From Candidatus Woesearchaeota archaeon (lineage in GTDB: Archaea; Nanobdellota; Nanobdellia; Woesearchaeales; GW2011-AR4), in NCBI GenBank assembly GCA_018303185.1, contig JAGVYR010000066.1, positions 29,553 to 93,552 on the forward strand: 64,000 nucleotides of DNA, in the 5' to 3' direction. The notes under the pieces were generated by a model. It had not been told where the DNA came from, made no database searches, and worked only from the letters and a program-made list of their open reading frames with translations. Both the position numbers and the translations under genes were made by a program. Below are positions 29,951 through 63,345 of this stretch, piece by piece. Within the stretch, counting starts at the first letter, position 1. Each line of letters starts with the position of its first letter.

Positions 29951-29951
29951 T

Positions 29952-31022: not shown

Positions 31023-31143
31023 CCAAAATGCCCTTATTAAGCAATAAAAAGGTTTTTAAAAACGTATAAAAACATTGTGTTTTATAGGGCTTAATCGAAG
31101 GAGAGTAACAACAGCCAGAAAGGGGGGGTTTTCACAATAAAAC

Positions 31144-31198: not shown

Positions 31199-31296
31199 AT
31201 TGACAATAAAAATAACGAAAAACCAATAAGAAAAACAATAAAACAAATCAACACAAAAATATCCTAAAATAATAAATAAACAAAAGCAAAAATCTT

Positions 31297-32440: not shown

Positions 32441-32698
32441 ATGGAAAAATTGGAAATAACAAGTATGAGTTCAAGAGGGCAGGTAGTTATTCCTTTAGAC
32501 ATTAGAGAACAGCTTGGATTAAAGGAAGGTGAGAAATTTGTTGTTGTTGGAGAAGATGATACAGTTATCTTGAAAAAAGTAACCATGCCTTCCTTCAAAA
32601 ACTTTGATAAATTAATTCAAAGAACACAGCAGTTTGCAAAAGAAAAAGGAATAACTCCAGTCGATGTTAAGAGTGCCATAAAGAGAGCTAGAAAATGA
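32441..32698 (+). CDS. AbrB/SpoVT-family antitoxin
   Basis: SSRGQVVIPLDIREQLGLKEGEKFVVV (swapped-hairpin barrel motif). Confidence 0.7.
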   Translation: MEKLEITSMSSRGQVVIPLDIREQLGLKEGEKFVVVGEDDTVILKKVTMPSFKNFDKLIQRTQQFAKEKGITPVDVKSAIKRARK

Positions 32699-33096
32699 AA
32701 GTAGTTCTTGACACAAATATATTTATTTCTGGAATCTTTTGGAAAGGTAGTTCCAACAAAGTTATAACTAATTGGAGAGAAGAAAAATTTACACTGGTTA
32801 CTTCTTTAGAAGCAATTTCAGAAATAATAAAAGTCCTCAAAGATTTTAAAATCAAGCTTTCAGATGAAATGATTAAAGAATGGGTTGATTTGATTGTAAG
32901 AAATTCTATGATTGTAGATCCAAAAGAAAAAATTGAGGCAGTTAAAGATGATCCAAAAGACAATATTTTCATTGAAACTGCTGTAGTTGGAAATGCGGAC
33001 TATATTATTTCGCAGGATAATCATTTGTTAAAATTAAAGGATTTCGGAGGAATTAAAATAATCACACCTGAAGAATTCGACAAAATATGTAACTGA
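32695..33096 (+). CDS. PIN-domain (VapC-like) toxin
   Basis: MKVVLDTNIFISGIF..., with a 4-nt ATGA overlap with the antitoxin gene. Confidence 0.7.
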   Translation: MKVVLDTNIFISGIFWKGSSNKVITNWREEKFTLVTSLEAISEIIKVLKDFKIKLSDEMIKEWVDLIVRNSMIVDPKEKIEAVKDDPKDNIFIETAVVGNADYIISQDNHLLKLKDFGGIKIITPEEFDKICN

Positions 33097-33369
33097 GTTT
33101 CCTCCACCCAACTACTACGACGAACCTTTTTCTCGCCTCTATACTGATTCTCGATGTACCGCTTTGCTCATTTGATAGAACGCCCTCCTTCTCAACTCCG
33201 CTGACGCGATTTTCGGAGCCTTGCAACAGAAAACAAAATTAACCGGAATTCCGTATGTTATTGGCTAAAAAAGTTAAGGCTTTGAATCTGCTGAACTGAG
33301 TGAAGCCCGTCTTGCGGCAAAGCCTAAAACCCATATAAATTTAAAAACCATGCTCTATTCTTAGGCAAA

Positions 33370-34209
33370 ATGGTGGAATCAGTAAAAGAATTGAGGAAAA
33401 TCTGCTATAAAGACTCCGGAAAGAAAAGGCCGCTCTACATGGAGCTGGTTACCATGAAATTCTCCATATACGTGACCAAGCTGTCCCTTTACACTCCTAT
33501 TGGCGCTGACCAGGTTTCCATGCTGATGATACTGCTTACGTTTATAGGGGCGGGCATGATTGCTTTCGGTAATCTCTGGTGGATGCTTGCCGGCATTTTA
33601 ATCGCGCATTTCACGATAGTGCTTGACAATGTAAACGGAGAGGTCGCAAGATACAGGAAGGAAGGCAGCCTCATAGGAACGTATCTTGAGGAAGTCTACC
33701 ACTCTGTCGCGGAGCCTCTTGTATTCTTCGCTTTCGGTTACGGAATATTCAGGAACACAGGATGGGAATCTGCAATACTGTTCGGATTCATCTGCTCCCT
33801 GTTCGTCCCGCCAATAATAATATCCTCAATAAAAAATGCTGTCGTAAAAAAGGGGATAGACCGATTAGAGAGCAGGGAAGGCATGCTGCCTAAAAAATAC
33901 ACTTTGCTCAATGAAAAGATAAACCTGAAGGGCGGAAGCACAAGAGCAGGATCAAAATTCTATGCCCTTTACGGCAAAATCAACGAGCTGTGGGGCTTTC
34001 CTTTCAATTTTGTGCACATAAACATAATCATAGCGCTGGAGATAATAAACCTCAGCTACAGCGTCATCCCTGAATTTTACCTTTCTTTTGGCTATATAGC
34101 AGCTTACGGAACTGCCAATTTCATCATACAAATCGCTTCCTTCATAGTGCATTACAAGGGAAGGACAATTTTCCACTACTACAACGCCCTGTTCGGCAAC
34201 AAGAAGTAA
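33370..34209 (+). CDS. Membrane protein with degenerate CDP-alcohol phosphatidyltransferase-like motif
   Basis: DNVNGEVARYRKEGSLIGTYLEE resembles D-x2-DG-x2-AR...G...D...D, but the last acidic residues are replaced. Confidence 0.35.
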   Translation: MVESVKELRKICYKDSGKKRPLYMELVTMKFSIYVTKLSLYTPIGADQVSMLMILLTFIGAGMIAFGNLWWMLAGILIAHFTIVLDNVNGEVARYRKEGSLIGTYLEEVYHSVAEPLVFFAFGYGIFRNTGWESAILFGFICSLFVPPIIISSIKNAVVKKGIDRLESREGMLPKKYTLLNEKINLKGGSTRAGSKFYALYGKINELWGFPFNFVHINIIIALEIINLSYSVIPEFYLSFGYIAAYGTANFIIQIASFIVHYKGRTIFHYYNALFGNKK

Positions 34210-34211
34210 AA

Positions 34212-35630
34212 ATGAAGACTGCCAGAAGGATAACAGCGAATTTTCTCAGCCTGCTTTCAGCGGAAATGCTCTCCAGAGTAGTGCAGCTTGCCATCTTCAT
34301 TTTTCTTGCCCGCTACCTTGGAAAGGAGGCTTTTGGCATTATAAACTTCTCAATGGCTTTTGCCATGATAATTCTTATAGTGGCCGATTTCGGCTTCAGC
34401 ACTTTCCTCATAAAGGAGATTGCCACAAAAAAGAACAAGGCTGCACAGATTGTCTCCAACTCGCTCATATTGAAATTCCTTCTGGGCGCGGCATCATTCC
34501 TGATTGCTTACATCTCTTTAGAGGTGCTTGGATACGGCAGCGACGTAAAAGTTATATCCTATGTGATGGTGCTCTTCGCGATAGTGCAGTCTTTCACATT
34601 CGTATATTACTCTGTTTTCAGGGCATTCGAAAAGATGTATTACGACGCTATCGTCAAGGTGATAAGGATATCATTGCTTGCCGCAATGGTATATGCGGGT
34701 TTTGCCATGAATTACGGGCTTCTCTGGATTGCGTCTTCATTCCTCATAACAGAAATTGCAGTGCTCTTTGTTTCTGCTGCTATAGCCTACTCAAAATTCA
34801 TCCCGCTTTCTTTCAGGGCCAGCCTGCCGTTCTCCATGAGGCTTCTTTCAGAATCCTCATTGTTCTGCTTCTCAATGGCGTTTGCCGGGATTTTCATGTA
34901 TATAGACATTGTAATCATTTCAAAGATAAGGGGAAATGCCGAAGTCGGCATCTACAGCGCGGCTTACAACATACTCCTTGCCCTCATATTTATCCCCATG
35001 ATGTATGCAAATGCCATATTTCCGGTAATATCGCGCCTGCACATTTCATCCAAAAACAGCCTTTCCTTTGCCTACCAGAAGTCATACAAGTACATGCTAA
35101 TTGCGGGGCTTCCTGTCTCTGCAGGAGTGTTTGTGCTTTCAAGGAACATCATAAATTTCCTTTACGGCCAGGAATACGGTGCTGCAGTGCTTGCATTAAA
35201 AATACTTTCCGGCTACATGTTCCTCAGGTTCATCAATATAATTTCAGGATTTACCCTCTCATCCATGGACAGGCAGAAATCCCGGGTCGTGAGCCAGGGC
35301 GCTACCGCAGTAATGAACATTGCCCTTGACCTTATCCTTGTGCCGATATTCGGATTCATAGGAGCTGCAATCGCAACTTTGATTACGGAAGTTTTTTTCT
35401 TCTTTCTTTACAGCTACTTCATAATAAAGTATGGCATAAAAAACAGGTTCTTCAGCGTGGCTGTAAAGCCGATAATTGCAGTGGCCGCCATGTCTGTCAT
35501 TGTAAGCTGGATAAGCGACCTGTTTTACGGCTTTATAGCGGGGGCGCTTGTCTACGGCTCCATGCTTCTAATCCTTGGGGCATTTGACAGGGAAGACATC
35601 ACTCTATTGAAGAGGGTGCTTAAGAATTAG
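34212..35630 (+). CDS. Wzx-like polysaccharide flippase (MOP superfamily)
   Basis: About 12-14 TM helices with a typical Wzx N-terminus. Confidence 0.6.
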   Translation: MKTARRITANFLSLLSAEMLSRVVQLAIFIFLARYLGKEAFGIINFSMAFAMIILIVADFGFSTFLIKEIATKKNKAAQIVSNSLILKFLLGAASFLIAYISLEVLGYGSDVKVISYVMVLFAIVQSFTFVYYSVFRAFEKMYYDAIVKVIRISLLAAMVYAGFAMNYGLLWIASSFLITEIAVLFVSAAIAYSKFIPLSFRASLPFSMRLLSESSLFCFSMAFAGIFMYIDIVIISKIRGNAEVGIYSAAYNILLALIFIPMMYANAIFPVISRLHISSKNSLSFAYQKSYKYMLIAGLPVSAGVFVLSRNIINFLYGQEYGAAVLALKILSGYMFLRFINIISGFTLSSMDRQKSRVVSQGATAVMNIALDLILVPIFGFIGAAIATLITEVFFFFLYSYFIIKYGIKNRFFSVAVKPIIAVAAMSVIVSWISDLFYGFIAGALVYGSMLLILGAFDREDITLLKRVLKN

Positions 35631-35767
35631 AGGTTATTTAATATTCCCAGCAAATGAGTTGAGGGGGACGCCCCCTGCGGGGCTTCAACGGTACTTTTAA
35701 GACAATGGCAATAGCCGAGCCTGATGCCAACCGAGCAAAGCGAGTCTTGTGGCAAAGCCTGAATTTT

Positions 35768-36715
35768 TCATTTATCCCCTTTAAAAAACTCAATCGTCTT
35801 CCTGAGCCCGTCTTCAAGGCTTACTTTCGGCTCCCATCCAAGCTCCTTCCTTGCTTTTGTTATGCCCGGCCTCCTTACATGGGGATCGTCTGTAGGAAGG
35901 GGCCTGAATGTGATTTTGCTTTTGCTTCCTGTAAGCTTTATTATAATGTCGGCAAACTGCAGCATATCATACTCATCGGGATTACCTAAATTAACTGGGT
36001 CGTTTATATCTGACATCATGAGCCTGTAAATGCCGTCTATTAAATCGGAAACGTAGCAGAAGCTTCTTGTTTGCTTCCCGTCTCCGAAAACAGTTATTGG
36101 CTTTCCCTCAAGAGCCTGCGAAATAAAGGCAGGCACAACGCGGCCGTCATTTTTCCTCATCCTTGGGCCGTAAGTGTTGAATATCCTGACAATCTTTGTA
36201 TCAAGCTTATGTATCCTGTGGTATGCCATCACAAGCGCTTCCGCAAACCTCTTTGCCTCGTCATAACAGCCCCTTGGGCCAACAGGATTTACATTGCCCC
36301 AGTAGCTCTCAGGCTGCGGGTTTACTTCAGGGTCGCCATAGACTTCGGAAGTTGATGCGAGAAAGTATTTCGCCTTTTTTGCCAGGGCAAGCCCGAGAGT
36401 GTTGTGCGTTCCCAAGCTGCCTGCCTTAAGCGTCTGTATAGGTATCTTCTGGTAGTCTATCGGGGATGCAGGCGAGGCAAAATGAAGCACGTAATCGATT
36501 TTTTCCTCGATTTTTATGAATTTTGAAATATCCTGATTGATGAATGAAAAATTTCCATTTTTATTGAGATGTTCAATGTTCTTTTTGCTGCCAGTTATAA
36601 GGTTGTCCATGCATATTACTCTGAAGCCCTTCCCAAGAAGGAATTCGCACAGGTGGCTTCCCAGAAATCCTGCCCCTCCAGTTACAAGCGCTGCCTTCAT
36701 TTTCTGCTGCTCCAT
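35768..36715 (-). CDS. UDP-glucuronate decarboxylase (UDP-xylose synthase)
   Basis: [42 protein letters not shown], strongly UXS-like. Confidence 0.8.
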
Positions 36716-37440
36716 ACTATATCGGCCTGCTTCAGCTGCTCCCTGCTTCCGATGTCAAACCATGTTTCCCTGAATACATGCCCAAATACTGTGCTGTTCT
36801 TTATCAGGTACTTTATGAAATCTCCAAGGTTGTCGGGCTTGCTGTTTTCCTTTATGCATTTCTCCATCAGGGCCATATCCTTCCTTGAGAAGATGTAGCA
36901 TGCAGTGCTCACCAGAGTCGTTTTAGGGCTTTCAGGCTTCTCTTCAAGCGCCTTTATGCTTCCATCTTTGCCTGTCTCCACAACTCCGTACTTTTTTGCG
37001 GCAAGGCTTCCGTCAAGAATGTCGTACAATGCTATTGAAGATGTTTTTTTCTCAAGGAAAAGCTGCTCAAGCGCCGCAAGGCTGAAATCAAAAAGATTGT
37101 CACCTGCAATGACCATTATGTCATCGCTGATTTTTTCGCTTTGCATCACAAAATGCATGTCTCCTATTGCGCCAAGCCTCTTCTCCTCTGTTTTTGTGCG
37201 GTCGTTCACTATCTTTATTGGCTTTTGCGATGAGAATGAAAGCTTCCATTTCCTGAAAGAATCGTAGAACTTGTCATTTGTGACCACAAATATTTCATCA
37301 ACACTGTCAACCTTCTCAACCTTTGCGATTATGTGCTCTATTATCGGCCTGCCGGCTATTGGAAGGAGGGGCTTTGGCTGGTCAAGAGTTATCGGATAGA
37401 GCCTTGTCGCATATCCTGCGCAGAGTATTATGCATTTCAT
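36697..37440 (-). CDS. Sugar-phosphate nucleotidyltransferase
   Basis: [38 protein letters not shown]. Confidence 0.75.
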
Positions 37441-37442
37441 CT

Positions 37443-38738
37443 TTATCTTCCCATGCTGATATATCTTATTCCTGATTTTTCCATTTCACTTGGGCCGTAT
37501 ATGTTCCTTCCGTCTATGACAAGCGGAGTTTTCATCAATTTTCCGATTTTCGCAAAGTCAATCTCCATGAATTCGCTCCATTCTGTAAGTATAAGGAGCG
37601 CTTCTGCATCATTTGCAGCTTCATAGGCATCTTTGCAGTATTCTATATTCCTGAACAAAGCTTTTGCCTTTTCCATGGCTTCGGGATCGTATGCTTTTAT
37701 CTTCGCCCCTTCCTTCTGCAGCTCCGATATTATGTAAATCGAAGGCGCTTCCCTCATGTCGTCGGTATTCGGCTTGAAGGCCAGCCCAAGGACGGCAATC
37801 TTTTTGTCCTTCAGGTTCCATACGGCATCCTTGACTTTCTTCACAAAAGCGGCTTTCTGCCGCTTATTGACTTCCTGCACTTCTCTTAGCAGCTTAAAAT
37901 CGTACCCGTTCTTCTCAGCTATCTTTACAAATGCATCCACATCCTTTGGAAAGCATGAGCCTCCGTAGCCTATGCCCGCATTCAGGAATGCCCTTCCTAT
38001 CCTTTTGTCAAAGCCCATCCCCTCTGCAACCTGCTCCACATTTCCACCGGTCTTCTCGCATATATTCGCAACGGCATTTATGAAAGATATCTTTGCCGCG
38101 AGGAATGAGTTGGAAGCGTGCTTTATTATCTCGGCGCTGTTTATGTCTGTAAAGAGTATGGGGGCCTTTAAGGGTGCGTAAAGCTTCCTGAATATCTCCC
38201 TTGCCCTTTCACTTTCAGCCCCGACAACTATCCTGTCGGGCTCCATGAAATCCTTTATCGCTGTCCCTTCCCTGAGGAATTCTGGATTTGAAGCAACATC
38301 AAACTCAATGCCTTTTCTGCAGAACCTCCTTATGGTTTCTTCGACTTTCCTGCCTGTCTGCACAGGAACAGTACTTTTCTCAACGACAAGCTTGTACCTG
38401 TCAATGTGCTCTGCAACCATCCTTGCCGTGTTCTCGACATAGGACAGCTCCGCATCCCCGTCAGCTTTTGGCGGAGTTCCGACACATACAAATATTACAT
38501 CTGCAAAGGTTATTGCTTTTTTTAAGTCGACAGTGAAAGAAAGCCTTCCGTCCTTTATGTTTCTCTGAACAAGCTCCTTAAGGCCCGGCTCGTAAATTGG
38601 CATCTCTCCCCTGTTGAGAGTCGCTATCTTGCTCTCGTCTATGTCAGCGCACACCACACTGTTGCCCAATTCCGAGAGGCATGTGCCGCTCGTAAGGCCG
38701 ACATATCCTGTCCCGATTATTGCTATCCTCATAGGCAT
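37443..38738 (-). CDS. UDP-glucose/GDP-mannose 6-dehydrogenase family
   Basis: IAIIGTGYVGLTSGTCLSELGNSVVCADIDESKI. Confidence 0.85.
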   Translation of the reverse strand: MPMRIAIIGTGYVGLTSGTCLSELGNSVVCADIDESKIATLNRGEMPIYEPGLKELVQRNIKDGRLSFTVDLKKAITFADVIFVCVGTPPKADGDAELSYVENTARMVAEHIDRYKLVVEKSTVPVQTGRKVEETIRRFCRKGIEFDVASNPEFLREGTAIKDFMEPDRIVVGAESERAREIFRKLYAPLKAPILFTDINSAEIIKHASNSFLAAKISFINAVANICEKTGGNVEQVAEGMGFDKRIGRAFLNAGIGYGGSCFPKDVDAFVKIAEKNGYDFKLLREVQEVNKRQKAAFVKKVKDAVWNLKDKKIAVLGLAFKPNTDDMREAPSIYIISELQKEGAKIKAYDPEAMEKAKALFRNIEYCKDAYEAANDAEALLILTEWSEFMEIDFAKIGKLMKTPLVIDGRNIYGPSEMEKSGIRYISMGR

Positions 38739-40252: not shown

Positions 40253-40368
40253 GGCGGACAGCTTTCCTGGTTTCCCACATAGAAATGCAGTACACCCAAG
40301 AACGGAGGCTCGCTTGACTTCCGAGTTCGGAATGGGATCGGGTAGAACCAAGCCCCTATGGCCGTCCT
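40253..40368 (-). rRNA. 5S ribosomal RNA (unlinked)
   Basis: The reverse complement reads GGACGGCCAUAGGGGCUUGGUUCUACCCGAUCCCAUUCCGAACUCGGAAGUCAAGC...GGGAAACCAGGAAAGCUGUCCGCC. It has the conserved CCGAAC and GGAAGU.AAGC motifs, and helix I closes GGACGGC/GCUGUCC. Confidence 0.85.
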
Positions 40369-40463
40369 AGGGTTTGGGAATGAATTTCGATTTATAAAGC
40401 TTATGGTTTTCGCTCGCCCCATATTGACGCAAAAACAAAGCTTTTATAGTATTAAATTGTCCT

Positions 40464-40757
40464 GTGCTCATGGTATCCAAAGAAGACGTAATAAAAGTCC
40501 TTGAGCAGGTACAGGACCCTGAGCTTGGCATGGACATATATTCTTTAGAGCTGATTTACGAGATTAAGGTGGAAGATGGCAAAGTATATGTGAAGATGAC
40601 CTTCACAACGCCAATGTGCCCCTACGGCCCTATGCTTCTTGATGAAGTCAAATACAGGCTGTCTGAGATTAAGGGCGTGAAGGAAGTAGATGTTGAAGTT
40701 TCTTTTGACCCCCCGTGGGAGCCTTCGCCTGAATTAAGGGCTACGCTTGGGGTTTAG
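40464..40757 (+). CDS. DUF59/MIP18-family Fe-S cluster assembly protein
   Basis: VLEQVQDPELGMDIYSLELIYEIKVEDGKVYVKMTFTTPMCPYGPML. Confidence 0.7.
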   Translation: MLMVSKEDVIKVLEQVQDPELGMDIYSLELIYEIKVEDGKVYVKMTFTTPMCPYGPMLLDEVKYRLSEIKGVKEVDVEVSFDPPWEPSPELRATLGV

Positions 40758-41824
40758 AAATCCGTCAGCTTCTTCGCCTGCCCGTACTTGACTATTGTAG
40801 TTTTGCCGTCTTTGCCGCCTGAAACTTTTTCGGTGGAAATGAACTTGTTCTCGCTTAATTTCTCAATCTTCCTCTGGAATGATTTATACACTAAAGAGCC
40901 GCCCTTGCCATGGTAAATCTTGAATAATTCTCCTATCTTCGACTCCGAATTCGCCCGGCATATATCCAGTATCATCTTCTCATCCGAAGCCAGCTCATCG
41001 CTGCTCTTGACTGTGAGATGGTCAATCTTCTTTATCGCTTCTTCCACATCCCTTAATTCAATTTTCCTTGAGGACCTGTTTTCCGCAGCCAAAGCCGCTT
41101 CTCTCATAAGATGAAGCCCTGTTCTCATGTCTTCAAGCTCTGCTGTCTTTTTTGCAATCGTCTCAAGGGCATCTGCCTCAAGCACATTAGGCGGAAAGGC
41201 GTATTCTGACCTTTGCTTCAGTATGCCTCTTGTTTCATTCAAATTATAGGGCCTGAACTCTATCATTTCCGGCAGTAATCTTGACTTTACCCTTAAATCC
41301 AGCTTGTCAATGAAATCATGGAAATTTGTTATCATGATTATTGATTTCTTGAATATCTCCTCAAGCATCGAATAGACAAGGTCAAAATCCTCAAGCTTGT
41401 CCACTTCATCCAAAGCTATTACAGCAGCTTTCCTGTTCAGTATCCCCTTTACAATGTTGAAAAGCTCGTCAGTCCTTTTGTTGTGCGTAAACTTATATTT
41501 CAGGATCTCGCACATTTCCATCAGAAGCTTAAAGCTGGAGTTTTTCTGCCAGCAGTTTATGTATATGGGGATGACTTCATCAGTCTCGTCTTCCAGCTCA
41601 TTGAGAACGTGCCTTATCGCTGCTGTCTTCCCTACCCCAGGCGGCCCGTGGATGAAAACATTCCTGCCGTTCCTTCCTTCAAGCAAAGGCCTTATGCATC
41701 CCGCAACTTTCCGCTGCTCTGTCTCCCTGTAAAGTAAAGGCTTTGGTAAGTACTCGAAATCCAGCGGGTACTCGTCATTTATCAGTTCTTCATTGGATTT
41801 GAGCATATCCTTGAAAAGAGCCAT
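40754..41824 (-). CDS. Orc1/Cdc6 replication initiator
   Basis: AAA+ Walker A (VFIHGPPGVGKTAAIRHV), Walker B (IALDEVDKL), and a C-terminal winged helix. Confidence 0.85.
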   Translation of the reverse strand: MALFKDMLKSNEELINDEYPLDFEYLPKPLLYRETEQRKVAGCIRPLLEGRNGRNVFIHGPPGVGKTAAIRHVLNELEDETDEVIPIYINCWQKNSSFKLLMEMCEILKYKFTHNKRTDELFNIVKGILNRKAAVIALDEVDKLEDFDLVYSMLEEIFKKSIIMITNFHDFIDKLDLRVKSRLLPEMIEFRPYNLNETRGILKQRSEYAFPPNVLEADALETIAKKTAELEDMRTGLHLMREAALAAENRSSRKIELRDVEEAIKKIDHLTVKSSDELASDEKMILDICRANSESKIGELFKIYHGKGGSLVYKSFQRKIEKLSENKFISTEKVSGGKDGKTTIVKYGQAKKLTDF

Positions 41825-41976: not shown

Positions 41977-43272
41977 CTAATGCATCCTCATTTTCTCTAA
42001 TCTCTTTAAACCATTCATGTAGGGCTGCAGCACCTTCGGAATGTCTACAGTGCCGTCCTTGTTCTGGTAATTTTCCAGTATTGCCCTCAAAGCCCTTGAA
42101 GTTGCTATTGCAGTGCTGTTCAGCGTATGCACCGGCATTTTTTCAGCGCCTTTCTGGTATCTTATGTTCAGCCTGTTTGCCTGATAGGCAGTGCAGTTTG
42201 AGCATGACACGACTTCCTTGTACTCTTCTTCGCGGGGCATAAAGGCTTCTATGTCGTATTTTTTAGCTGCAACAATCCCAATGTCACCAGTGCAGATATT
42301 CACAACCCTGTAAGGCAGCTCCAGTTTTTTGAAAATGCTTTCTGCAATGGAAAGAAGCTCCTCGTGCATCTTCCATGAGTCTTCCTGCCTGCAAAAAATG
42401 AACATCTCAACCTTGTTGAAATGATGGACGCGGAAGAAGCCCCTTTCATCCACGCCATGGCTTCCCAGCTCTTTCCTGAAGCACGGGCTTATTCCTGCGT
42501 ATTTCTTTGGCAGCTCTTTTTCATTCATGGTTTTATCCTTTAACATTGCCGCAATCGGGTGTTCAGATGTCGCTATAAGATACAAATCCTCATTCTCAAT
42601 CTTGTACATCATCGTCTCGAAATCTGCAAGGTCGGTAACGCCTTCATAAGGCTCCCTCCTCAGCATCAAAGGCGGCTCTACAAGAGTGAAGCCTTTTTCT
42701 ATCAGGATGTCAAGGGCAAGCCTCTGCAAAGCAAGTTCCGTCCTTGCCAAATCCCCTAAGAGGTAATAAAATCCGTGCCCTGAATTCTTCCCTGCGTCAT
42801 CAAAATTAGCCATTCCCAATGATTCTGCAATCTCGCCGTGCGGCTTTAATTTGAAGTCAAACTTCTTTTTCTTTCCTTCTTCCTTCATGACTTTGTTTTC
42901 ACTGCTGTCTTTTCCGTACGGCACTGATTCATGCAGCATGTTCGGGATGTGCATGAGGTACCTGTCAACCTCTTCCTTGATTTTTACGGTCTTTTCCTGC
43001 GCTTCCTTCACTTTCCCGGGAATGTCCTTTGCTTCCTGCATTGCCCTTGACGCATCCTTGCCTTCTTTCTTCAGCTGCCTGATTTCATCAGTGACTTCAT
43101 TCCTTCTTTTTCTCAGACTTTGCTCATCCTGAAGCAGCTTCCTGTATTCCTCATCCTTCTTAACAAGGTCGTCAAACCAATCCAGAATTTTAGCATTTCT
43201 TCTTTTCTCAAGGTTCTTCCTAACTTCCTGAGTGTGTTCCCGCACGTATTTTATATCGAGCATTTTGCTCAA
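41977..43272 (-). CDS. serS: Seryl-tRNA synthetase
   Basis: N-terminal coiled coil with class II aaRS motifs (FRKELGSHGVDERGFFRVHHFNKVEMF...). Confidence 0.85.
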   Translation of the reverse strand: MSKMLDIKYVREHTQEVRKNLEKRRNAKILDWFDDLVKKDEEYRKLLQDEQSLRKRRNEVTDEIRQLKKEGKDASRAMQEAKDIPGKVKEAQEKTVKIKEEVDRYLMHIPNMLHESVPYGKDSSENKVMKEEGKKKKFDFKLKPHGEIAESLGMANFDDAGKNSGHGFYYLLGDLARTELALQRLALDILIEKGFTLVEPPLMLRREPYEGVTDLADFETMMYKIENEDLYLIATSEHPIAAMLKDKTMNEKELPKKYAGISPCFRKELGSHGVDERGFFRVHHFNKVEMFIFCRQEDSWKMHEELLSIAESIFKKLELPYRVVNICTGDIGIVAAKKYDIEAFMPREEEYKEVVSCSNCTAYQANRLNIRYQKGAEKMPVHTLNSTAIATSRALRAILENYQNKDGTVDIPKVLQPYMNGLKRLEKMRMH

Positions 43273-45630: not shown

Positions 45631-47556
45631 CTACTCCAGAATCCTTATCTCTTCCCCTGAATTCATCGCCTTCATGACAGCCTGCCCGATATTGTTCTTT
45701 TTCTTGATTTTAATCACGCCCGTCTTGCCTGCCTGCACTGTCAGAAGGTAATTTTCCCCTATGTAAACATCAAACTCCCTGTTCTGGTTTTCCATTCCCA
45801 AGTCGAAGTGCATCGCATTGCCCTTCATGTGCAGGCTGTATTTTATTTCGTTTCCAATGATTTCATTTCCATGCTCTTTTTCATTGAATGAGTTTTCTTT
45901 TCTATTCTCTGTTTTTTCATTGAATTTATTTTCCTTGTGCCCATGTTTCAATTCCCTGACATCAACGCCCATCCCCAATTCTTTCTCAATCCTTTCAATA
46001 TTTTTCCCTTGCTTCCCTATAATGCCTGCAATCTCATTCTCAGGAACATAGACAATGCATTTATTGTCATTCAAAACCTCGACTTCAATGCTATCCACAT
46101 ATTGCCTGAAAAAATCCTTTATCCCTTTCTCGGCGTGCTTCAAAGCCCCGGACTTCCTGCTGCTTTCCTGCACCGGCACTACAACAGTCTGCTCACCATA
46201 GCTGTAAATCTCATAAGCTGCCTTTCCCGTCTCGAAATCATCCACAACCACAACAGGCCTTGACAAATCAGCTTCTGTCATTCCTGCAGGCACTTTCACT
46301 GTCATTTTTACTGACAGTGTTTTTTCTATTTTTCCGTTTTTGATAAAAATGACCGTGTCTATGATTTGCGGGATAACGCCCATCTCAACCCTTCCTAAGA
46401 ATCTCTGTATTGCATCTATGGGGTTTGTGGCATGCACGACACCGACCATGCCGACTCCTGCCAGCCTCAAATCAGCAAAGAGCTGGAAGTCTTTTGTATT
46501 CCTCATCTCATCAAATATGGTATGGTCGGGCCTTGTCAATAAAAGAATATCGTGTATCTCCTGCGCATCCCCGTGGCTTATTGCATACTGCGTTATCGAT
46601 TCCGGCAGCACAAGATCCCTTGGAGCCTCGACTGTCTTTACAATCTTGTCCTGCTTTGCATAGTTTTCTGCCAGCGCCTGGGCAAAAGTCGATTTTCCCA
46701 TTCCCGGGCTTCCTGCAACTAAAATGCCTTCTGCCTGCTTTCCTATCCTTTCCTTCAGCTTTTCGCTCATCTCATAGTCTTCAAGGCTAAGCTTCTTTAC
46801 AGGCCTTACTGCGGTGATTTCATGCCCGTCAGAAAACGGCGGCCTTGTTATCACAATCCTGAAATTTCCAAGCTGTATTATAGTTGAGCCGAACCTTTCA
46901 ATCTCAATAAAGCCATCCCTTCTTATTTTCGCTTCCTCAATTATTTCCTTGCTTATTTCCTGGATTTCTTCCTGTGACAGTAATTTTTTCCTTAATTCCC
47001 TGAATTCCCATTCTCCCGGCTTTCCCCTTTTTGCATATGGCGGCACGTTTTCTCTCAAGTGAACTGACATGGTTGTTTCATCAAAGAACTTTTCTAGCTT
47101 CAGTTTTTTTATCTGGGTTTCCGGCACTTGAAAATATTGGCACTTTATGCCTTTTGCAAAAGCCACTTCGCTTTGAACCTTATCTGATGTGACTAAGGTA
47201 GCATCCTCATCATGCGCCAGCTGCCTGATTAAAGCGTCAATCTCCCCTAGGGAAGCGTGCCTTATTTCCGCAGCCCTTGGGCGATGCCCTTTGAAGCTTA
47301 AAGTGAAATTTTTCTCTTTTGAAAGCTCCCTCAGCTTCTTTATTTCATCCAATCCAAGGAAGCCTATTGCCTTGCCCTCATTTGCCTGATGCTCCAGTTC
47401 TGCCAGGGAAGCCTCATGTATGATAATCTCTTCAGGCTTTATCTCCTCTTTCGCTGTCATATGTGAAAGCAAAGCCGGCTTTATCTCCTCTTTCGCTGTC
47501 ATATGTGAAAGCAAAGCCCGTATTATTACAGAAGTATCCGGCACAATCCTTTCCAT
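45631..47556 (-). CDS. PIN-domain / PilT-like ATPase / KH-domain protein (archaeal COG1855 family)
   Basis: N-terminal PIN (MERIVPDTSVIIRA), Walker A (GSPGMGKSTFAQALAENY), and a C-terminal KH (NEIAGIIGKQGKNIERIEKELGMGVDV). Contains an in-frame 42-nt tandem duplication. Confidence 0.75.
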   Translation of the reverse strand: MERIVPDTSVIIRALLSHMTAKEEIKPALLSHMTAKEEIKPEEIIIHEASLAELEHQANEGKAIGFLGLDEIKKLRELSKEKNFTLSFKGHRPRAAEIRHASLGEIDALIRQLAHDEDATLVTSDKVQSEVAFAKGIKCQYFQVPETQIKKLKLEKFFDETTMSVHLRENVPPYAKRGKPGEWEFRELRKKLLSQEEIQEISKEIIEEAKIRRDGFIEIERFGSTIIQLGNFRIVITRPPFSDGHEITAVRPVKKLSLEDYEMSEKLKERIGKQAEGILVAGSPGMGKSTFAQALAENYAKQDKIVKTVEAPRDLVLPESITQYAISHGDAQEIHDILLLTRPDHTIFDEMRNTKDFQLFADLRLAGVGMVGVVHATNPIDAIQRFLGRVEMGVIPQIIDTVIFIKNGKIEKTLSVKMTVKVPAGMTEADLSRPVVVVDDFETGKAAYEIYSYGEQTVVVPVQESSRKSGALKHAEKGIKDFFRQYVDSIEVEVLNDNKCIVYVPENEIAGIIGKQGKNIERIEKELGMGVDVRELKHGHKENKFNEKTENRKENSFNEKEHGNEIIGNEIKYSLHMKGNAMHFDLGMENQNREFDVYIGENYLLTVQAGKTGVIKIKKKNNIGQAVMKAMNSGEEIRILE

Positions 47557-51769: not shown

Positions 51770-52399
51770 TCAGTCCATCGGGAATAGATTTCCTGAGTAA
51801 GGCGCCCTTGGCGATTTTAAAGATAAATCCCCGTTGGAAATGCCTGGGTGATTGAAAATAAGAATGCCCTGAAGGTGGTCAAACTCATGCTGCATAATCG
51901 CAACAGGATGCACCTTATCCGGAGATTGCCTCTGCTTCTCTGTAAGCCTGTAAGAATACTGAACCTTTTTTGGCGGCTCTCCTCTGATGAGCTCAAATGC
52001 ATCCACTTTAAAGAAAGTATGTCTCATCACCTGCACACTTTCATCATTTTTCGCGCCGCATGTCTCGAAAGACGGGTAAGTGCGCCAAGGCCACGACCTT
52101 TTGACGATTTGCGGATTCAATAAGGTCGTATGCCCTTCCCTGTCAGGATACGGAACCCTTACAACTGATATGGGAGCTTCAGTAGCAGTCCAGTATATGT
52201 TGTTTGAGCTTACACCAATCCAGTGGAATTCTCCCATATAGTGCTTCATCATCAGGTCAAGCTCGTGCACCGACTGCATGTCGGCTTCATTTGCAATATC
52301 AATCTCCCTTGCTTTCGCATAAAGCCAAGAATCGTGCCTGCCTACAAGCGCCCTTTCTGCCCCAAGCCTCCTTTCAAGCTCTCCAATGTCCATAGCCAT
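51770..52399 (-). CDS. Peptide deformylase-like metallohydrolase
   Basis: IMQHEFDHLQG matches PDF motif 3 (QHExDHLxG). ETCGA loosely matches the EGCLS motif. Confidence 0.4.
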   Translation of the reverse strand: MAMDIGELERRLGAERALVGRHDSWLYAKAREIDIANEADMQSVHELDLMMKHYMGEFHWIGVSSNNIYWTATEAPISVVRVPYPDREGHTTLLNPQIVKRSWPWRTYPSFETCGAKNDESVQVMRHTFFKVDAFELIRGEPPKKVQYSYRLTEKQRQSPDKVHPVAIMQHEFDHLQGILIFNHPGISNGDLSLKSPRAPYSGNLFPMD

Positions 52400-56169: not shown

Positions 56170-56249
56170 ATTACTGGCTGTTTTGTTTTTGGTTTATATA
56201 TATTTTCAATGATAATCTTTATAAAACAGGTTAAATAACTCAGTGCTGT

Positions 56250-56372
56250 GCCGCGGTCGCATAGCCCGGCCATTGCGGAGGATTGCTAAGGGCCAGGGTC
56301 CTTATGATACCTTGCCATGGTTGGATATTCTCTGTCCGCAAGGACACGTGAGTTCAAATCTCACCCGCGGCG
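56250..56372 (+). tRNA. tRNA-Ser (GCU), class II, with a 38-nt intron at the canonical 37/38 position
   Basis: Acceptor stem GCCGCGG/CCGCGGC. Anticodon stem GAGGA/UUCUC with loop UUGCUA|intron|A. Variable arm UGUCCGCAAGGACA. T-arm GUGAG-UUCAAAU-CUCAC. Confidence 0.7.
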
Positions 56373-56395
56373 TCTTTTCATTTAAGGTAACAAAA

Positions 56396-57106
56396 ATGGC
56401 ACGGATAAAATATATCATCCCCAGCCTCATAACAGCCGCAAGCCTTGCTTTCGGGCTGCTGTCAATAAGGTCTTCAGTGCAGGGCAATTACATTGATGCG
56501 TCCTGGCTCATTGTCTGGACTGTCCTGCTGGACAAGCTGGATGGAAGCATAGCATCATACCTTGATGCAAAAACAAGATTCGGGAATTATTTTGATTCTA
56601 TCTCTGACTTCGTGTCATTCGGTGCTGCCCCTTCATTCCTGGCGTACAGGATTGCCATGCCGATGGCTCCTGGCTATAAGGCTGCCCTGATGGCAGCTTC
56701 AGTAATTTTCATGCTTTCATCCGGATTAAGGCTCCTGAATTTCTCGGCAAAGATGTATAAATTCGAAGATTTCTGGGGCATACCAACTACCCTGTCAGCG
56801 TCATTATTGGCGCCTTACATGATACTTATCCTGAAATATGGCCTTGGCAGCGCCTTTATCCGGGCATTGCCGTTTATCCTTGTTGCTCTAGGCATATTGA
56901 TGAACTCAAAGTTTGTGTTTGCAAGGCTGAAGAAAAAGAAGAGCAGGGGCATGGCGATTTTCCAGTTTGTCTTGATTGTCCTTGTCTATTCTTTCGGAAT
57001 CCTGCGCATCTTCCCAGAATTCCTGATGGGCTGCGCCGTCTTCTACCTTTTTTACGGAATCGTTATTTTCAGGCTGCCAAAGAGGCTGCATGACGCTCTT
57101 TCTTAA
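56396..57106 (+). CDS. CDP-alcohol phosphatidyltransferase family membrane protein
   Basis: DKLDGSIASYLDAKTRFGNYFDSISD matches D-G-x2-A-R-x8-G-x3-D-x3-D. The true start is the ATG at 56396, because the 5' part of the ORF-track call overlaps the tRNA. Confidence 0.75.
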   Translation: MARIKYIIPSLITAASLAFGLLSIRSSVQGNYIDASWLIVWTVLLDKLDGSIASYLDAKTRFGNYFDSISDFVSFGAAPSFLAYRIAMPMAPGYKAALMAASVIFMLSSGLRLLNFSAKMYKFEDFWGIPTTLSASLLAPYMILILKYGLGSAFIRALPFILVALGILMNSKFVFARLKKKKSRGMAIFQFVLIVLVYSFGILRIFPEFLMGCAVFYLFYGIVIFRLPKRLHDALS

Positions 57107-57155
57107 GCAGGCATTCGTAGCAACCTTTTTAAAGTAACTTCCATTCGCATAACTT

Positions 57156-57261
57156 AGCGGGGTAGGGCTTTTGCAGCCTTAGCTGACTGCAGACCTAAGA
57201 GTCAGGAGTGCCCGGGGGGCTCATAACCCCCAGGTCGGAAGTTCAAATCTTCTCCCCGCTA
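57156..57261 (+). tRNA. Initiator-type tRNA-Met (CAU) with an intron of about 33 nt at a non-canonical position in the D-arm region
   Basis: A1:U72 acceptor stem AGCGGGG/CCCCGCU. Anticodon stem-loop GGGGG-CUCAUAA-CCCCC, with three or more G-C pairs as in the initiator. T-arm GGAAG-UUCAAAU-CUUCU. About 41 nt lie between D-stem GGGC and its partner GCCC. Confidence 0.65.
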
Positions 57262-57558
57262 TTAAAGCTTAAGGGGCTCACTCCCCCCTTTAGCTATTAT
57301 TATATCTACTGCACGCCCTCTTGCCGCTATCGCTTTGATGTTTTTAGGGACTGCTGCGACTTTAGGGATTGCTGATAAAACGCCTAAAGCTGCTCCGGTT
57401 TCCAATGCAGTTATTACTTTTGTTCCGGGAGGGGCCGTGTAGGCAGCCTGTCCTTTCCTTTGAAAAAGTATAATCCGGCTCTCCTGTTTTTTTGGGGCTT
57501 AGCCTGTTCTCAAAACCCGTATTTTTCAAAAATAATATTAACCAGTTCTCTGAATGTA

Positions 57559-62229: not shown

Positions 62230-63345
62230 GGCTTAAATGAGGCAATTGACAAATTCAATTTTTATATAGCAACAACGATTTTTGAACTTGAATTCTCTTC
62301 ATTTTTGATAACAATTTGAATTGTTCTAAAACAAATGAAAACGCAATTATATTCTCAACAGTTGTCTTTTTTATCGTATGACTTTTCTTTACTTTATTTT
62401 GTATTAAACAAATCTGCGTATAAATTTTTGAGTAACTGTTGACTCTTTCTATGCTTGTTCTTTTCTTAAATTCTTCCATTACAAATTCATTATTTTTATA
62501 GACGGGATTGATTTTAAAATGCCAATCTGTCATCGGTAAATCAATTCGTTCTGTAATTCCTGAAGCCCTTTGATTGTATCCAACCAAAGGAATTTTGTGC
62601 TGGACTAAAATTATTATTTCGTGCATTTCACGAAAATCGAAAATACCATCCATAGTTATAAAAATATTATTTTTGCTATCATCAACTTGTTTTTCTTTTA
62701 GCAACTCTTTCGCCAAATTTATCTGTCCTTCTCTTGCATAGCCAACTAAAAATCTTCTTGCTATTTGATGTTTTGTAGACGCTAAAATCATTAGCCAAAA
62801 TCCATGAAATTTCTTTTTGTCGCTTTTTGCTCCAAAGTGGTATCTGTCAAAACTCATGTCATCGTTTTCAAAAGCTCTGCTTTTTTCCAAAATTCCATCG
62901 AGAAAATTAAAAATTTCTACAAATTTATAGGAAAATTTCTTTTCGAATTTGCTTAAAGTATCATGACTCGGGATTTTTTGAAAGCCGCAAAATTCCAGAT
63001 AAGACTTATTTTCTTGCAATCTGTTCACCAAAATTGTGTTATCATCTATCAGAAGATACGATTTCAAAATAAATGACTTAAACAAATTTACATACCCAAA
63101 CTCTCTTTTCCTGCCACGACGAGAAAACCTTGATTTGCCTAATATTTGCTTGATGGGAAGCCAGTCAAACTCTTGGATTAGGCTTTTTAAATGTAGAAAT
63201 TCTCGGTAATTTTGCATAAAAAGTGCACCTCTTTTATCATATTACCGACTAGAAATTTGGTGCTTTAAATGCTTTGCGTGTATTCTGTCGTCTAGAAAGT
63301 TATTTTTTGTCATCTAAAAAAATTAAGCGATTGCCTCTTAAATAA
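62230..63345. mobile_element. IS4/IS5-superfamily insertion sequence (single transposase ORF, imperfect terminal inverted repeats)
   Basis: The IR core is GAGGCAATTG (62239-48) versus the reverse complement of 63328-37 (GAGGCAATCG). The element is AT-rich and encodes the 62255..63217 transposase. Confidence 0.5.
62255..63217 (-). CDS. IS5/IS4-like DDE transposase
   Basis: The N-terminal SRRGRKREFGYVNLFKSFILKSYLLIDDNTILVNRLQENKSYLEFCGF is an InsH-type N-domain. It is followed by a DDE region. Confidence 0.55.
   Translation of the reverse strand: MQNYREFLHLKSLIQEFDWLPIKQILGKSRFSRRGRKREFGYVNLFKSFILKSYLLIDDNTILVNRLQENKSYLEFCGFQKIPSHDTLSKFEKKFSYKFVEIFNFLDGILEKSRAFENDDMSFDRYHFGAKSDKKKFHGFWLMILASTKHQIARRFLVGYAREGQINLAKELLKEKQVDDSKNNIFITMDGIFDFREMHEIIILVQHKIPLVGYNQRASGITERIDLPMTDWHFKINPVYKNNEFVMEEFKKRTSIERVNSYSKIYTQICLIQNKVKKSHTIKKTTVENIIAFSFVLEQFKLLSKMKRIQVQKSLLLYKN

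What the first reader, a model, noticed from the sequence alone, without database searches (positions are those of the whole stretch)
57156..57261. Initiator tRNA-Met interrupted by an intron at a non-canonical (D-arm) position
The gene is 106 nt. The acceptor stem, the anticodon arm (GGGGG-CUCAUAA-CCCCC) and the T-arm are intact and contiguous. About 41 nt separate D-stem GGGC from its partner GCCC. The intervening sequence contains its own helices (CUGACU/AGUCAG, CUUAG/CUAAG) that are compatible with a bulge-helix-bulge motif. Non-canonical tRNA introns are known in some archaeal lineages and are a useful lineage marker.
Basis: partly seen in the sequence, partly recalled or inferred. Interest (0 to 1): 0.5.

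Follow-up and report, generated by a model that had tools for sequence, protein, structure and literature searches.

The report
Initiator tRNA with D-arm intron
This is a real archaeal start-codon tRNA gene, from an uncultured Woesearchaeota (DPANN) archaeon, interrupted by a 31-base intron between the D-stem and the D-loop; this kind of interruption is already known in archaea, so it is a good annotation catch and not a new mechanism.

Summary
Observation confirmed and interpretation largely right. Window 57156..57261 (+) is an archaeal initiator tRNA-Met(CAU) gene of 106 nt. An initiator-specific covariance model matches it end to end (78.2 bits, E 5e-15), with all four stems intact and an oversized D-loop. 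Comparison with 119 intron-less initiator tRNAs puts the insertion at exactly 31 nt (57169..57199), between tRNA positions 13 and 14. The spliced 75-nt product is 71/75 identical to the Nanobsidianus initiator.

It is a relaxed bulge-helix-bulge (HBh' type):
- Central helix: exon UAGG (nt 8-11) pairs with intron CCUA.
- Bulges: GCU and AGA carry the two cut sites.
- Intron helix: 7 bp.
- Outer helix: absent.

Chance gives this geometry at the homology-defined junction in about 4 of 100,000 intron shuffles. The gene is identical in 8 independent assemblies.

Related DPANN initiators carry D-arm introns at 9/10 to 15/16. Splicing itself is inferred, not shown; no endonuclease gene lies in the window. 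Verdict: new member of a known kind, modest interest. A second intron-containing tRNA (Ser-GCU) lies 780 nt upstream.

The parts
57156..57261 (+). Complete initiator tRNA-Met(CAU) gene, 106 nt; no encoded CCA
   Evidence: Sequence. Full-length hit of own initiator covariance model R1: 78.2 bits, E 4.6e-15, model positions 1-75. Identical in 8 independent metagenome assemblies.
57156..57168 (+). 5' exon, tRNA positions 1-13 (acceptor 5' strand, U8 A9, D-stem 5' strand GGGC)
   Evidence: Collinear with intron-less initiators AGCGGGGTAGGGC^AG...
57169..57199 (+). Intron, 31 nt (UUUUGCAGCCUUAGCUGACUGCAGACCUAAG), between tRNA positions 13 and 14
   Evidence: This is the only deletion that restores a 75-nt initiator collinear with 119 intron-less genes; shifting by 1 nt either way destroys C13:G22 or A14. 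The BHB-rule cut sites give the same boundaries.
57200..57261 (+). 3' exon, tRNA positions 14-73 (D-loop AGUCAGGAGU, D-stem 3' strand, anticodon arm, variable loop, T-arm, acceptor 3' strand, A73)
   Evidence: Rfam tRNA partial hit at 57200..57261; R1 alignment.
57163..57166 (+). Central helix H, 5' strand (exon U8 A9 G10 G11); pairs with 57194..57197
   Evidence: 4/4 pairs, kept in L137 with A:U changed to G:U at 9:41.
57194..57197 (+). Central helix H, 3' strand (intron CCUA)
57167..57169 (+). 5' bulge G12 C13 | U (predicted cut after C13, i.e. 57168|57169)
   Evidence: Three unpaired nt between H and h'. The cut after the second bulge nucleotide follows the canonical BHB rule (own knowledge, checked against the canonical 37/38 geometry) and coincides with the homology junction.
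57170..57193 (+). Intron hairpin h': UUUGCAG (57170..57176) pairs with CUGCAGA (57187..57193); 10-nt loop at 57177..57186
   Evidence: 7 bp. Two compensatory changes against L137: 18:35 G:C to A:U and 20:33 A:U to G:C.
57198..57200 (+). 3' splice-site trinucleotide A G | A14 (predicted cut 57199|57200); not closed by an outer helix
   Evidence: h = 0 bp, hence the relaxed HBh' type.
57222..57224 (+). Anticodon CAU
   Evidence: Sequence.
57126..57134 (+). A/T-rich TATA-box-like element TTTTTAAAG, centred about 26 nt upstream of tRNA position 1 (inferred promoter)
   Evidence: Sequence. Identical in all 8 other assemblies. The neighbouring tRNA-Ser has TTTATAAAA at a similar distance. The function is inferred, not tested.

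Best explanation
Window 57156..57261 encodes the precursor of an archaeal initiator tRNA-Met of a Woesearchaeota (DPANN) archaeon.

Proposed mechanism (steps 1, 3 and 4 are inferred from established knowledge of archaeal tRNA splicing; only the structure in step 2 is supported by sequence evidence here):
1. The gene is probably transcribed from an A/T-rich promoter about 26 nt upstream.
2. In the precursor the D-stem cannot form. Exon nucleotides U8-A9-G10-G11 pair with the last CCUA of a 31-nt intron, making a 4-bp central helix. The intron also folds into a 7-bp hairpin.
3. This presents the two splice sites three nucleotides from either end of the 4-bp helix, as a relaxed bulge-helix-bulge motif of the HBh' type with no outer helix. 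The archaeal tRNA splicing endonuclease (EndA) cuts after C13 and before A14 (57168|57169 and 57199|57200).
4. An RtcB-type ligase joins the halves. G10-C13 are then free to pair with G22-C25, giving a normal 75-nt cloverleaf. CCA is added afterwards.

Because the outer helix is missing, the organism's EndA must be one of the broad-specificity forms. In DPANN these are reported as alpha4 enzymes with the L3 loop, (alpha-beta)2, or epsilon2.
For: 1. Identity as an initiator tRNA:
- A1:U72, CAU anticodon and G29-31:C39-41 are visible in the sequence.
- The initiator covariance model gives a full-length hit of 78.2 bits.

2. Intron boundaries by homology:
- All 119 intron-less initiators retrieved place AGCGGGG 28-29 nt before the anticodon-stem match.
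- Deleting gene nt 14-44 gives a 75-nt product that is 71/75 identical to the Nanobsidianus initiator (L002) and 70/75 identical to a Micrarchaeota one. Its minimum-free-energy fold is a cloverleaf.

3. Splice motif at exactly that junction:
- H has 4/4 pairs and h' has 7 bp. It is the only such site in the 5' half of the gene, and 4e-5 of 200,000 intron shuffles reproduce it.

4. Conservation with covariation:
- L137 carries the same 31-nt intron at 13/14, directly upstream of RNase HII as in the window.
- Of the 15 differences between the two genes, 10 form 5 compensatory pairs (2 in h', 2 in the anticodon stem, 1 in the acceptor stem), 2 are G:U-compatible and 3 are unpaired. All 56 pair cells (28 pairs x 2 sequences) form standard pairs, against 44-59% when partners are slid by 1-3 columns.

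5. Not an artefact:
- The gene and its 60 nt of upstream sequence are identical in 8 independent ENA assemblies.

6. Family context:
- All 13 other DPANN-type initiators with one D-arm insertion have an intron-side helix h' at a homology-compatible junction (positions 9/10 to 15/16), 12 of them with a full 4-bp H (L175 has 3 of 4). All but 3 have no outer-helix pair at all (those 3 have 1-2 bp).

7. The genome splices tRNAs:
- tRNA-Ser(GCU) at 56250..56373 carries a 38-nt intron at 37/38.

8. Literature:
- BHB is defined as two 3-nt bulges separated by a 4-nt helix, with relaxed hBH and HBh' forms, and occurs in D-loops (PMC6379350).
- D-loop introns are excised in A. pernix tRNA-Thr (in vitro, and mature tRNA detected in cells) and M. 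kandleri tRNA-Glu (mature sequences seen by RNA-seq) (PMC3241643, PMC5829648).
- DPANN EndAs with the L3 loop are associated with disrupted tRNA genes (PMC5829648).
Against: - No RNA data: splicing, cut sites and ligation are all inferred.
- The outer helix h is absent, so a strict BHB is not formed.
- The BHB conformer (-35.4 kcal/mol) is not the predicted minimum-free-energy fold of the 106-nt RNA (-47.3 kcal/mol). The MFE fold uses nt 8-14:20-26 and 28-33:45-50 instead.
- Covariation rests on a single diverged relative.
- No EndA or RtcB gene lies in the 64-kb window, so the enzyme type is unknown.
- I could not run tRNAscan-SE.
Confidence: 0.88

Rival explanations
1. The gene is a decaying pseudogene: an initiator tRNA disrupted by a 31-nt insertion and no longer functional, with the working initiator tRNA encoded elsewhere in the genome.
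For: Standard finders reject it. Only 64 kb of the genome is visible, so a second initiator gene cannot be excluded. The strict BHB is incomplete, with no outer helix.
Against: All 21 cloverleaf pairs are intact. Every one of the 15 substitutions relative to L137 is either compensatory, G:U-compatible or unpaired, including two compensatory pairs inside the intron hairpin; this is not expected without selection on the precursor structure. The gene sits in the same place, upstream of RNase HII, in L137. The same architecture recurs in 13 other DPANN-type initiators.
Confidence: 0.04
2. The extra 31 nt are not removed, and the mature initiator tRNA carries an expanded D-arm with an extra hairpin.
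For: A conformer with the D-stem formed and the h' hairpin inside the D-loop is energetically similar (-36.7 versus -35.4 kcal/mol). Covariation in h' alone would also fit a retained hairpin.
Against: The 4-bp H helix and the 3-nt spacing place the canonical cut sites exactly at the homology junction, which a retained insertion would not require. The insertion separates C13 from A14 and would disrupt U8:A14 and the D-loop/T-loop core. Related genes carry insertions of different length and position (9/10 to 15/16) but always with the H plus h' geometry. As far as I know, no archaeal cytoplasmic tRNA with such a D-arm is known.
Confidence: 0.03
3. The intron is real, but its boundaries or motif differ from those given here. 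For example, it could be defined by the first reader's helices (CUGACU/AGUCAG, CUUAG/CUAAG) or by the MFE hairpin nt 8-14:20-26.
For: These helices exist, and the MFE fold uses 8-14:20-26 and 28-33:45-50. The 8-14:20-26 pairing remains possible in L137.
Against: CUGACU/AGUCAG loses 3 of 6 pairs and CUUAG/CUAAG loses 1 of 5 in L137, with no compensatory change. No other (a,b) pair in the 5' 58 nt gives a 4-bp H with h' of 4 bp or more. Any other junction yields a product that is not collinear with intron-less initiators.
Confidence: 0.04
4. The insertion is an assembly or chimera artefact.
For: The source is a metagenome-assembled genome.
Against: The same 106 nt and flanks were recovered from 8 independent assemblies, and a diverged homologue comes from an unrelated JGI metagenome (L137).
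Confidence: 0.005

Closest known systems
Non-canonical archaeal tRNA introns in the D-loop with relaxed HBh' motif, e.g. Methanopyrus kandleri pre-tRNA-Glu(UUC) intron at 20b/21 (PMC5829648) and Aeropyrum pernix pre-tRNA-Thr2(UGU) D-loop intron (PMC3241643)
   Same: A short protein-spliced intron inside the D-arm. It has a 4-bp central helix formed between exon and intron, an intron-side helix, and splice sites 3 nt from the helix ends. It needs an endonuclease that tolerates position and motif relaxation.
   Different: The tRNA species differs (initiator Met), as do the exact position (13/14, the D-stem/D-loop boundary, so H uses U8-G11 and the D-stem must be unpaired in the precursor) and the lineage (Woesearchaeota, DPANN). 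There is no experimental evidence for splicing here.
Disrupted tRNA genes of DPANN archaea (ARMAN-2 pre-tRNA-Cys 59/60 hBH intron, PMC3239211; tRNA predictions for Woesearchaeota/Pacearchaeota genomes and L3-loop alpha4 EndAs, PMC5829648)
   Same: Same superphylum. Relaxed motifs at non-canonical positions are linked to endonucleases with extra loops.
   Different: The examples described in the text of those papers lie in the T-loop or are not itemised. I found no description of an initiator tRNA 13/14 intron in the held literature, although the key surveys (Marck and Grosjean 2003; Sugahara 2008) were not readable here.
Canonical archaeal tRNA intron at 37/38 with strict hBHBh' motif
   Same: Same inferred enzymes and chemistry, and the same 3-4-3 geometry around the central helix. 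The neighbouring tRNA-Ser(GCU) in this window has an intron at that position.
   Different: The position differs (D-arm rather than anticodon loop). The outer helix h, which the anticodon stem provides at 37/38, is missing, and the precursor must refold after splicing.

Membership tests
Archaeal initiator tRNA-Met | CAU anticodon, A1:U72 terminal pair, three consecutive G:C pairs (29-31:39-41) in the anticodon stem, overall cloverleaf | tested here: met
   Sequence. Covariance model of 29 archaeal initiators: 78.2 bits, full length. The spliced product is 71/75 identical to the Nanobsidianus initiator and folds as a cloverleaf.
Endonuclease-spliced (BHB-type) archaeal tRNA intron | Removing the intron restores a tRNA collinear with intron-less homologues | tested here: met
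   There is a unique solution, nt 14-44 (57169..57199).
Endonuclease-spliced (BHB-type) archaeal tRNA intron | Central 4-bp helix H, with both splice sites in the 3 nt flanking it on opposite strands | tested here: met
   UAGG:CCUA forms 4/4 pairs. The cuts predicted by the geometry equal the homology junction. Shuffle frequency is 4e-5 with the 7-bp h'.
Endonuclease-spliced (BHB-type) archaeal tRNA intron | Intron-side helix h' closing the 5' bulge, conserved by covariation | tested here: met
   7 bp, with 2 compensatory pairs against L137. Only one diverged relative was available.
Strict hBHBh' motif (substrate of narrow-specificity alpha4 / alpha'2 EndA) | Outer helix h (2 bp or more) closing the second 3-nt bulge | tested here: not met
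   h = 0 bp in the window and in L137. It is absent in 10 of the 13 other DPANN-type D-arm introns examined and only 1-2 bp in the other three. The motif is therefore filed as relaxed HBh', not strict BHB.
Endonuclease-spliced (BHB-type) archaeal tRNA intron | A splicing endonuclease (EndA) of broad specificity and an RtcB ligase encoded by the same genome | not testable with these tools
   Neither was found among about 50 ORFs of the window. The rest of the genome is not available.
Endonuclease-spliced (BHB-type) archaeal tRNA intron | Excision observed in RNA (mature junction, free or circular intron) | not testable with these tools
   No transcript data.
Self-splicing group I / group II intron in tRNA | Ribozyme core of at least about 200 nt with conserved P-helices / domains | tested here: not met
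   The insertion is only 31 nt. No Rfam intron family is hit in 56900..57500 at E up to 10.
Intron-encoded C/D box sRNA (as in some archaeal tRNA-Trp introns) | C box RUGAUGA and D box CUGA with a guide segment | tested here: not met
   The intron UUUUGCAGCCUUAGCUGACUGCAGACCUAAG contains a CUGA but no C box, and is too short (sequence).

The most novel reading that the evidence does not exclude
The 13/14 intron here and the 15/16 intron in the initiator gene upstream of RNase HII in another Woesearchaeota genome (L120) may be one ancestral intron that 'slid' by 2 nt. The mechanism would be re-registering of its conserved 3' element CCUAA on the exon sequence UAGGGC.

More broadly, D-arm HBh' introns at 9/10 to 15/16 would then form a DPANN-specific, mobile or sliding intron family targeted to the initiator tRNA. 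That would make maturation of the initiator tRNA (a single copy, if no second gene exists) strictly dependent on a broad-specificity EndA.

Both introns end in CCUAA and pair with the same exon segment in registers shifted by 2 nt. However, my metagenome search selected for D-arm insertions, so no enrichment can be claimed.
Probability: 0.2. Interest if true: 0.45.

Novelty: new member of a known kind. Interest (0 to 1): 0.25.

Why it matters
Practical value comes first. The initiator tRNA of this organism is invisible to ARAGORN and scores below threshold with the Rfam tRNA model, so the genome could be scored as lacking tRNA-iMet unless intron-aware tools are used. According to its paper (PMC8450103), the BHB models of tRNAscan-SE 2.0 were trained on Crenarchaeota, Euryarchaeota and Thaumarchaeota, not on DPANN.

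Biologically, it adds a clean, covariation-supported example of a relaxed HBh' intron at the D-stem/D-loop boundary of an essential tRNA in a DPANN archaeon. This predicts that the organism's splicing endonuclease has broad substrate specificity, in line with the proposed co-evolution of EndA loops and disrupted tRNA genes (PMC5829648).

The set of related genes with introns at 9/10, 10/11, 13/14, 14/15 and 15/16 could be used to study intron gain, loss or sliding. It does not reveal a new mechanism.

Tried and rejected
- ARAGORN default found no tRNA in the window. Local ARAGORN with -i, and with lowered thresholds, gave only spurious calls on the 601-nt region 56900..57500 that contains the gene.
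- I enumerated all splice variants and asked ARAGORN to score them. It accepts almost any deletion as tRNA-Met, so it does not discriminate.
- Rfam cmscan aligns only the 3' 62 nt, at 25.6 bits against a gathering score of 29.
- I used RNAfold MFE to look for the BHB. The MFE is a different fold, so energy alone does not identify the splice motif.
These were useful as comparators but yielded no siblings.
- I sought more siblings through synteny. Nine further loci around RNase HII homologues (L121-L123, L253-L258) contain no initiator tRNA. Only L120 and L137 share the arrangement.
- P0001, the NCBI protein identical to the window's RNase HII, is not in the contig index, so I could not obtain the source accession.
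- I looked for EndA and RtcB among the window ORFs and found none.
- Literature: Marck and Grosjean 2003 is not held, Kaneta 2018 has no held supplements, and a slash term such as '13/14' cannot be searched. I therefore could not establish whether a 13/14 intron in tRNA-iMet is already tabulated.
- Rejected readings: group I intron and C/D-box sRNA host (too short, no motifs), and assembly artefact (8 identical independent assemblies).

Full report
**1. What is at the coordinates**

Window 57156..57261 (+) reads AGCGGGG UA GGGC [41 nt] GCCC G GGGGG CUCAUAA CCCCC AGGUC GGAAG UUCAAAU CUUCU CCCCGCU A.
- The acceptor stem (7 bp, A1:U72), the anticodon arm (CAU anticodon at 57222..57224, with three or more G:C pairs next to the loop) and the T-arm are uninterrupted.
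- GGGC and GCCC are 41 nt apart.

Ordinary finders do not see the gene:
- The ARAGORN tool reports no tRNA in the whole window.
- Local ARAGORN runs with the anticodon-loop intron option give nothing, or spurious calls at lowered thresholds.
- Rfam's tRNA model aligns only 57200..57261, using AGUCAGG as a false acceptor strand. It scores 25.6 bits, below the gathering score of 29.

**2. Formal test that it is an initiator tRNA**

I retrieved 119 archaeal initiator tRNA genes from the genome collection with a 3'-exon pattern. All are intron-less: AGCGGGG lies 28-29 nt upstream of the anticodon-stem match.

I built a covariance model (R1) from 29 distinct sequences with the cloverleaf as structure.
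- R1 matches window 57156..57261 over model positions 1-75 at 78.2 bits, E 4.6e-15. All four stems align, and the D-loop is replaced by a long unaligned stretch.
- There is no other initiator in the 64 kb.

**3. Where exactly the intron is**

The intron-less DPANN-type initiators read AGCGGGGUAGGGC-AGYCWGGAGU-GCCCG (Nanobsidianus L002, Nanopusillus, Micrarchaeota L016, Woesearchaeota L053 and L063).
- Deleting gene nt 14-44 (window 57169..57199, 31 nt) is the only deletion that restores this pattern. Shifting by one nucleotide breaks C13:G22 or removes A14.
- The 75-nt product is 71/75 identical to the Nanobsidianus initiator and 70/75 to a Micrarchaeota one. Its minimum-free-energy fold is a cloverleaf.

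The intron therefore lies between positions 13 and 14, at the D-stem/D-loop boundary.

**4. The splice motif**

The archaeal splicing endonuclease recognises two 3-nt bulges separated by a 4-bp helix, or relaxed versions lacking one closing helix (hBH, HBh') (PMC6379350).

I searched all cut-site pairs in the 5' 58 nt for a 4-bp helix with the required 3-nt spacing. Exactly one site has H = 4/4 with an intron-side helix of 4 bp or more, and it is the homology-defined junction:

| Element | Gene nt | Window | Sequence |
|---|---|---|---|
| H, 5' strand (exon) | 8-11 | 57163..57166 | UAGG |
| H, 3' strand (intron) | 39-42 | 57194..57197 | CCUA |
| 5' bulge | 12-14 | 57167..57169 | G C \| U |
| h', 5' strand | 15-21 | 57170..57176 | UUUGCAG |
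| h' loop | 22-31 | 57177..57186 | 10 nt |
| h', 3' strand | 32-38 | 57187..57193 | CUGCAGA |
| 3' trinucleotide | 43-45 | 57198..57200 | A G \| A |

- With the intron shuffled and the junction fixed, H = 4/4 plus h' of 7 bp or more occurs in 4e-5 of 200,000 trials.
- The outer helix h is absent (0 bp), so this is a relaxed HBh' motif and not a strict hBHBh'.
- Because H uses G10 and G11, the D-stem cannot exist in the precursor and must form after ligation.
- The rule that cleavage falls after the second nucleotide of each bulge is from my own knowledge of the canonical motif. I checked it against the canonical 37/38 geometry, and here it reproduces the homology junction.

**5. Conservation and covariation**

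One of them, L137, has the same 31-nt intron at 13/14. It lies directly upstream of an RNase HII gene, as in the window.

The two 106-nt genes differ at 15 positions:
- 10 form five compensatory pairs: acceptor 7:66, anticodon stem 27:43 and 28:42, and h' pairs 18:35 (G:C to A:U) and 20:33 (A:U to G:C).
- 2 are G:U-compatible.
- 3 are unpaired.

All 56 pair cells of the BHB-plus-cloverleaf structure form standard pairs, against 44-59% when partners are slid by 1-3 columns.

CUGACU/AGUCAG loses 3 of 6 pairs and CUUAG/CUAAG loses 1 of 5, with no compensation. They also cross each other, and AGUCAG is exon (D-loop) sequence.

This is only one relative, so the covariation evidence is real but thin.

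**6. Not an artefact; organism**

The downstream RNase HII is 100% identical to an NCBI protein of 'Candidatus Woesearchaeota archaeon' on a 112,832-bp contig. The same 106-nt gene and its 60 upstream bases are identical in 8 independent ENA metagenome assemblies.

**7. Family context**

Fifteen DPANN-type initiators (D-loop ending GGAGU) carry a single D-arm insertion.
- All have an intron-side helix h' of 2-9 bp at a homology-compatible junction, and 14 of them have a 4-bp H (L175 has 3 of 4). Eleven have no outer-helix pair at all; the other four have 1-2 bp.
- The positions are 9/10 or 10/11, 13/14, 14/15 and 15/16.
- L120, a Woesearchaeota genome whose RNase HII is 68% identical, has its initiator about 1.1 kb upstream of that gene, with a 28-nt intron at 15/16 (H = GGGC:GCCU, h' 9 bp).
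- Other Woesearchaeota have intron-less initiators (L015, L026, L053, L063).
- Soil, Thaumarchaeota-like initiators in the same scan carry two introns.

My pattern selected for D-arm insertions, so nothing can be said about frequency.

**8. Mechanism**

Shown here:
- gene identity;
- unique intron boundaries;
- an HBh' motif at those boundaries;
- compensatory evolution of h' and of the tRNA stems;
- recurrence of the architecture in related genes;
- presence of a second intron-containing tRNA in the same window.

Inferred from established knowledge of archaeal tRNA splicing:
- transcription from the A/T-rich element TTTTTAAAG (57126..57134), about 26 nt upstream;
- cleavage by EndA at 57168|57169 and 57199|57200;
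- ligation by RtcB;
- refolding of the D-stem;
- CCA addition (none is encoded).

Relaxed motifs require broad-specificity endonucleases. These are (alpha-beta)2, epsilon2 or, in DPANN, alpha4 enzymes with the L3 loop, which are reported to go with increased tRNA gene disruption (PMC5829648, PMC3239211, PMC6379350). D-loop introns are known to be excised in A. pernix tRNA-Thr (shown in vitro) and M. kandleri tRNA-Glu (mature sequences seen by RNA-seq) (PMC3241643, PMC5829648).

No EndA or RtcB gene is among about 50 window ORFs scanned against Pfam, so the enzyme type is untested.

**9. Points against, and open points**

- The BHB conformer (-35.4 kcal/mol) is not the predicted MFE of the precursor (-47.3 kcal/mol, z -2.85). 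The MFE pairs nt 8-14 with 20-26 and 28-33 with 45-50.
- The second of these helices is not conserved. The first remains possible in L137, because the intron carries a second exon-complementary CCUUA at nt 22-26. Its meaning, if any, is unknown.
- There are no RNA data.

**10. Comparison with the known, and verdict**

This is a non-canonical, protein-spliced archaeal tRNA intron of the relaxed HBh' class. That class has been known for two decades, including cases in D-loops and in DPANN genomes.

What is specific here is the tRNA (initiator), the exact position (13/14), the lineage (Woesearchaeota) and the refolding requirement. I found no description of this particular case in the searchable literature, but the main surveys were not readable.

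I rate it a new member of a known kind, interest 0.25. Its main value is for annotation, since the initiator tRNA is otherwise missed, and as one data point for EndA/tRNA co-evolution and possible intron sliding (13/14 versus 15/16).

Noticed in passing
window 56250..56373 (+); intron 56289..56326: A second intron-containing tRNA lies 780 nt upstream of the finding: tRNA-Ser(GCU) with a 38-nt intron at the canonical 37/38 position. It was found as a weak hit of my initiator model (30.4 bits) and by local ARAGORN -i, but missed by the default ARAGORN tool and by Rfam gathering. One oddity: the best strict BHB-like motif shares the expected 3' cut but places the 5' cut 10 nt downstream of 37|38, while the expected H helix has only three G:U pairs. 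It may be a nested or relaxed intron.
   Followed up: partly
window 56243..57106 (+): The mechanical ORF (GTG start) runs through the tRNA-Ser gene. The real CDP-alcohol phosphatidyltransferase CDS most likely starts at ATG 56396 (MARIKY...). Gene callers in other assemblies also list the 287-aa version.
   Followed up: partly
window 51770..52399 (-): A polypeptide-deformylase-like ORF (PF01327, E 5e-10) occurs in an archaeon whose initiator tRNA is of the archaeal A1:U72 type. This is a bacterial-type enzyme and is unexpected where initiation uses unformylated Met.
   Followed up: no
window 1..38738: There is a very large surface-glycan / nucleotide-sugar biosynthesis cluster. It includes a GDP-mannose dehydratase, two DegT aminotransferases, NeuB, a cytidylyltransferase, several GT2/GT4 glycosyltransferases, two Polysacc_synt flippases and a UDP-glucose dehydrogenase.
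   Followed up: no
window 40253..40369 (-): A 5S rRNA gene (74.1 bits) stands alone, with no 16S/23S rRNA in the window. It sits next to Orc1/Cdc6 (40754..41824) and seryl-tRNA synthetase (41977..43263).
   Followed up: no
window 57177..57181 and 57194..57197: The intron holds two elements complementary to exon U8-G12: CCUUA in the h' loop and CCUA in helix H. The first supports an alternative hairpin (nt 8-14:20-26) that is part of the predicted MFE fold and stays pairable in L137. It could be a competing precursor conformer or a relic of intron movement.
   Followed up: partly
L120 1313..1415; also L209, L227, L229, L232, L242, L179, L146, L191, L206: DPANN-type initiator tRNAs from metagenomes carry D-arm introns at 9/10, 10/11, 14/15 and 15/16, with the same H plus h' architecture and no outer helix. 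L120 (Woesearchaeota, initiator upstream of RNase HII) has 15/16, and its intron also ends in CCUAA.
   Followed up: partly
L124, L126, L130, L134, L125, L132, L133 and many others among L124..L243: Soil-metagenome initiator tRNAs (Thaumarchaeota-like 5' halves, AGCGGGGTGGGGAAGCCAG.. or ..GGGGTAGATTCTC..) carry two insertions, one in the D-loop and one in the variable/T-arm region.
   Followed up: no
L077, L101, L109 and many Thermoproteota loci among L001..L119: Immediately upstream of many crenarchaeal initiator tRNA genes there is a partial copy of the tRNA 5' end. In L077, L101 and L109 this is (A/G)GCGGGGTAGGGC directly abutting the gene. More widely, GGCGGGG(Y) lies 13-20 nt upstream. 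It may be a leader element or an integration scar.
   Followed up: no
window 62255..63217 (-): A transposase-like ORF (DUF772, weak) lies at the window edge. PIN-domain proteins are at 32695..33096 and 45631..47556.
   Followed up: no
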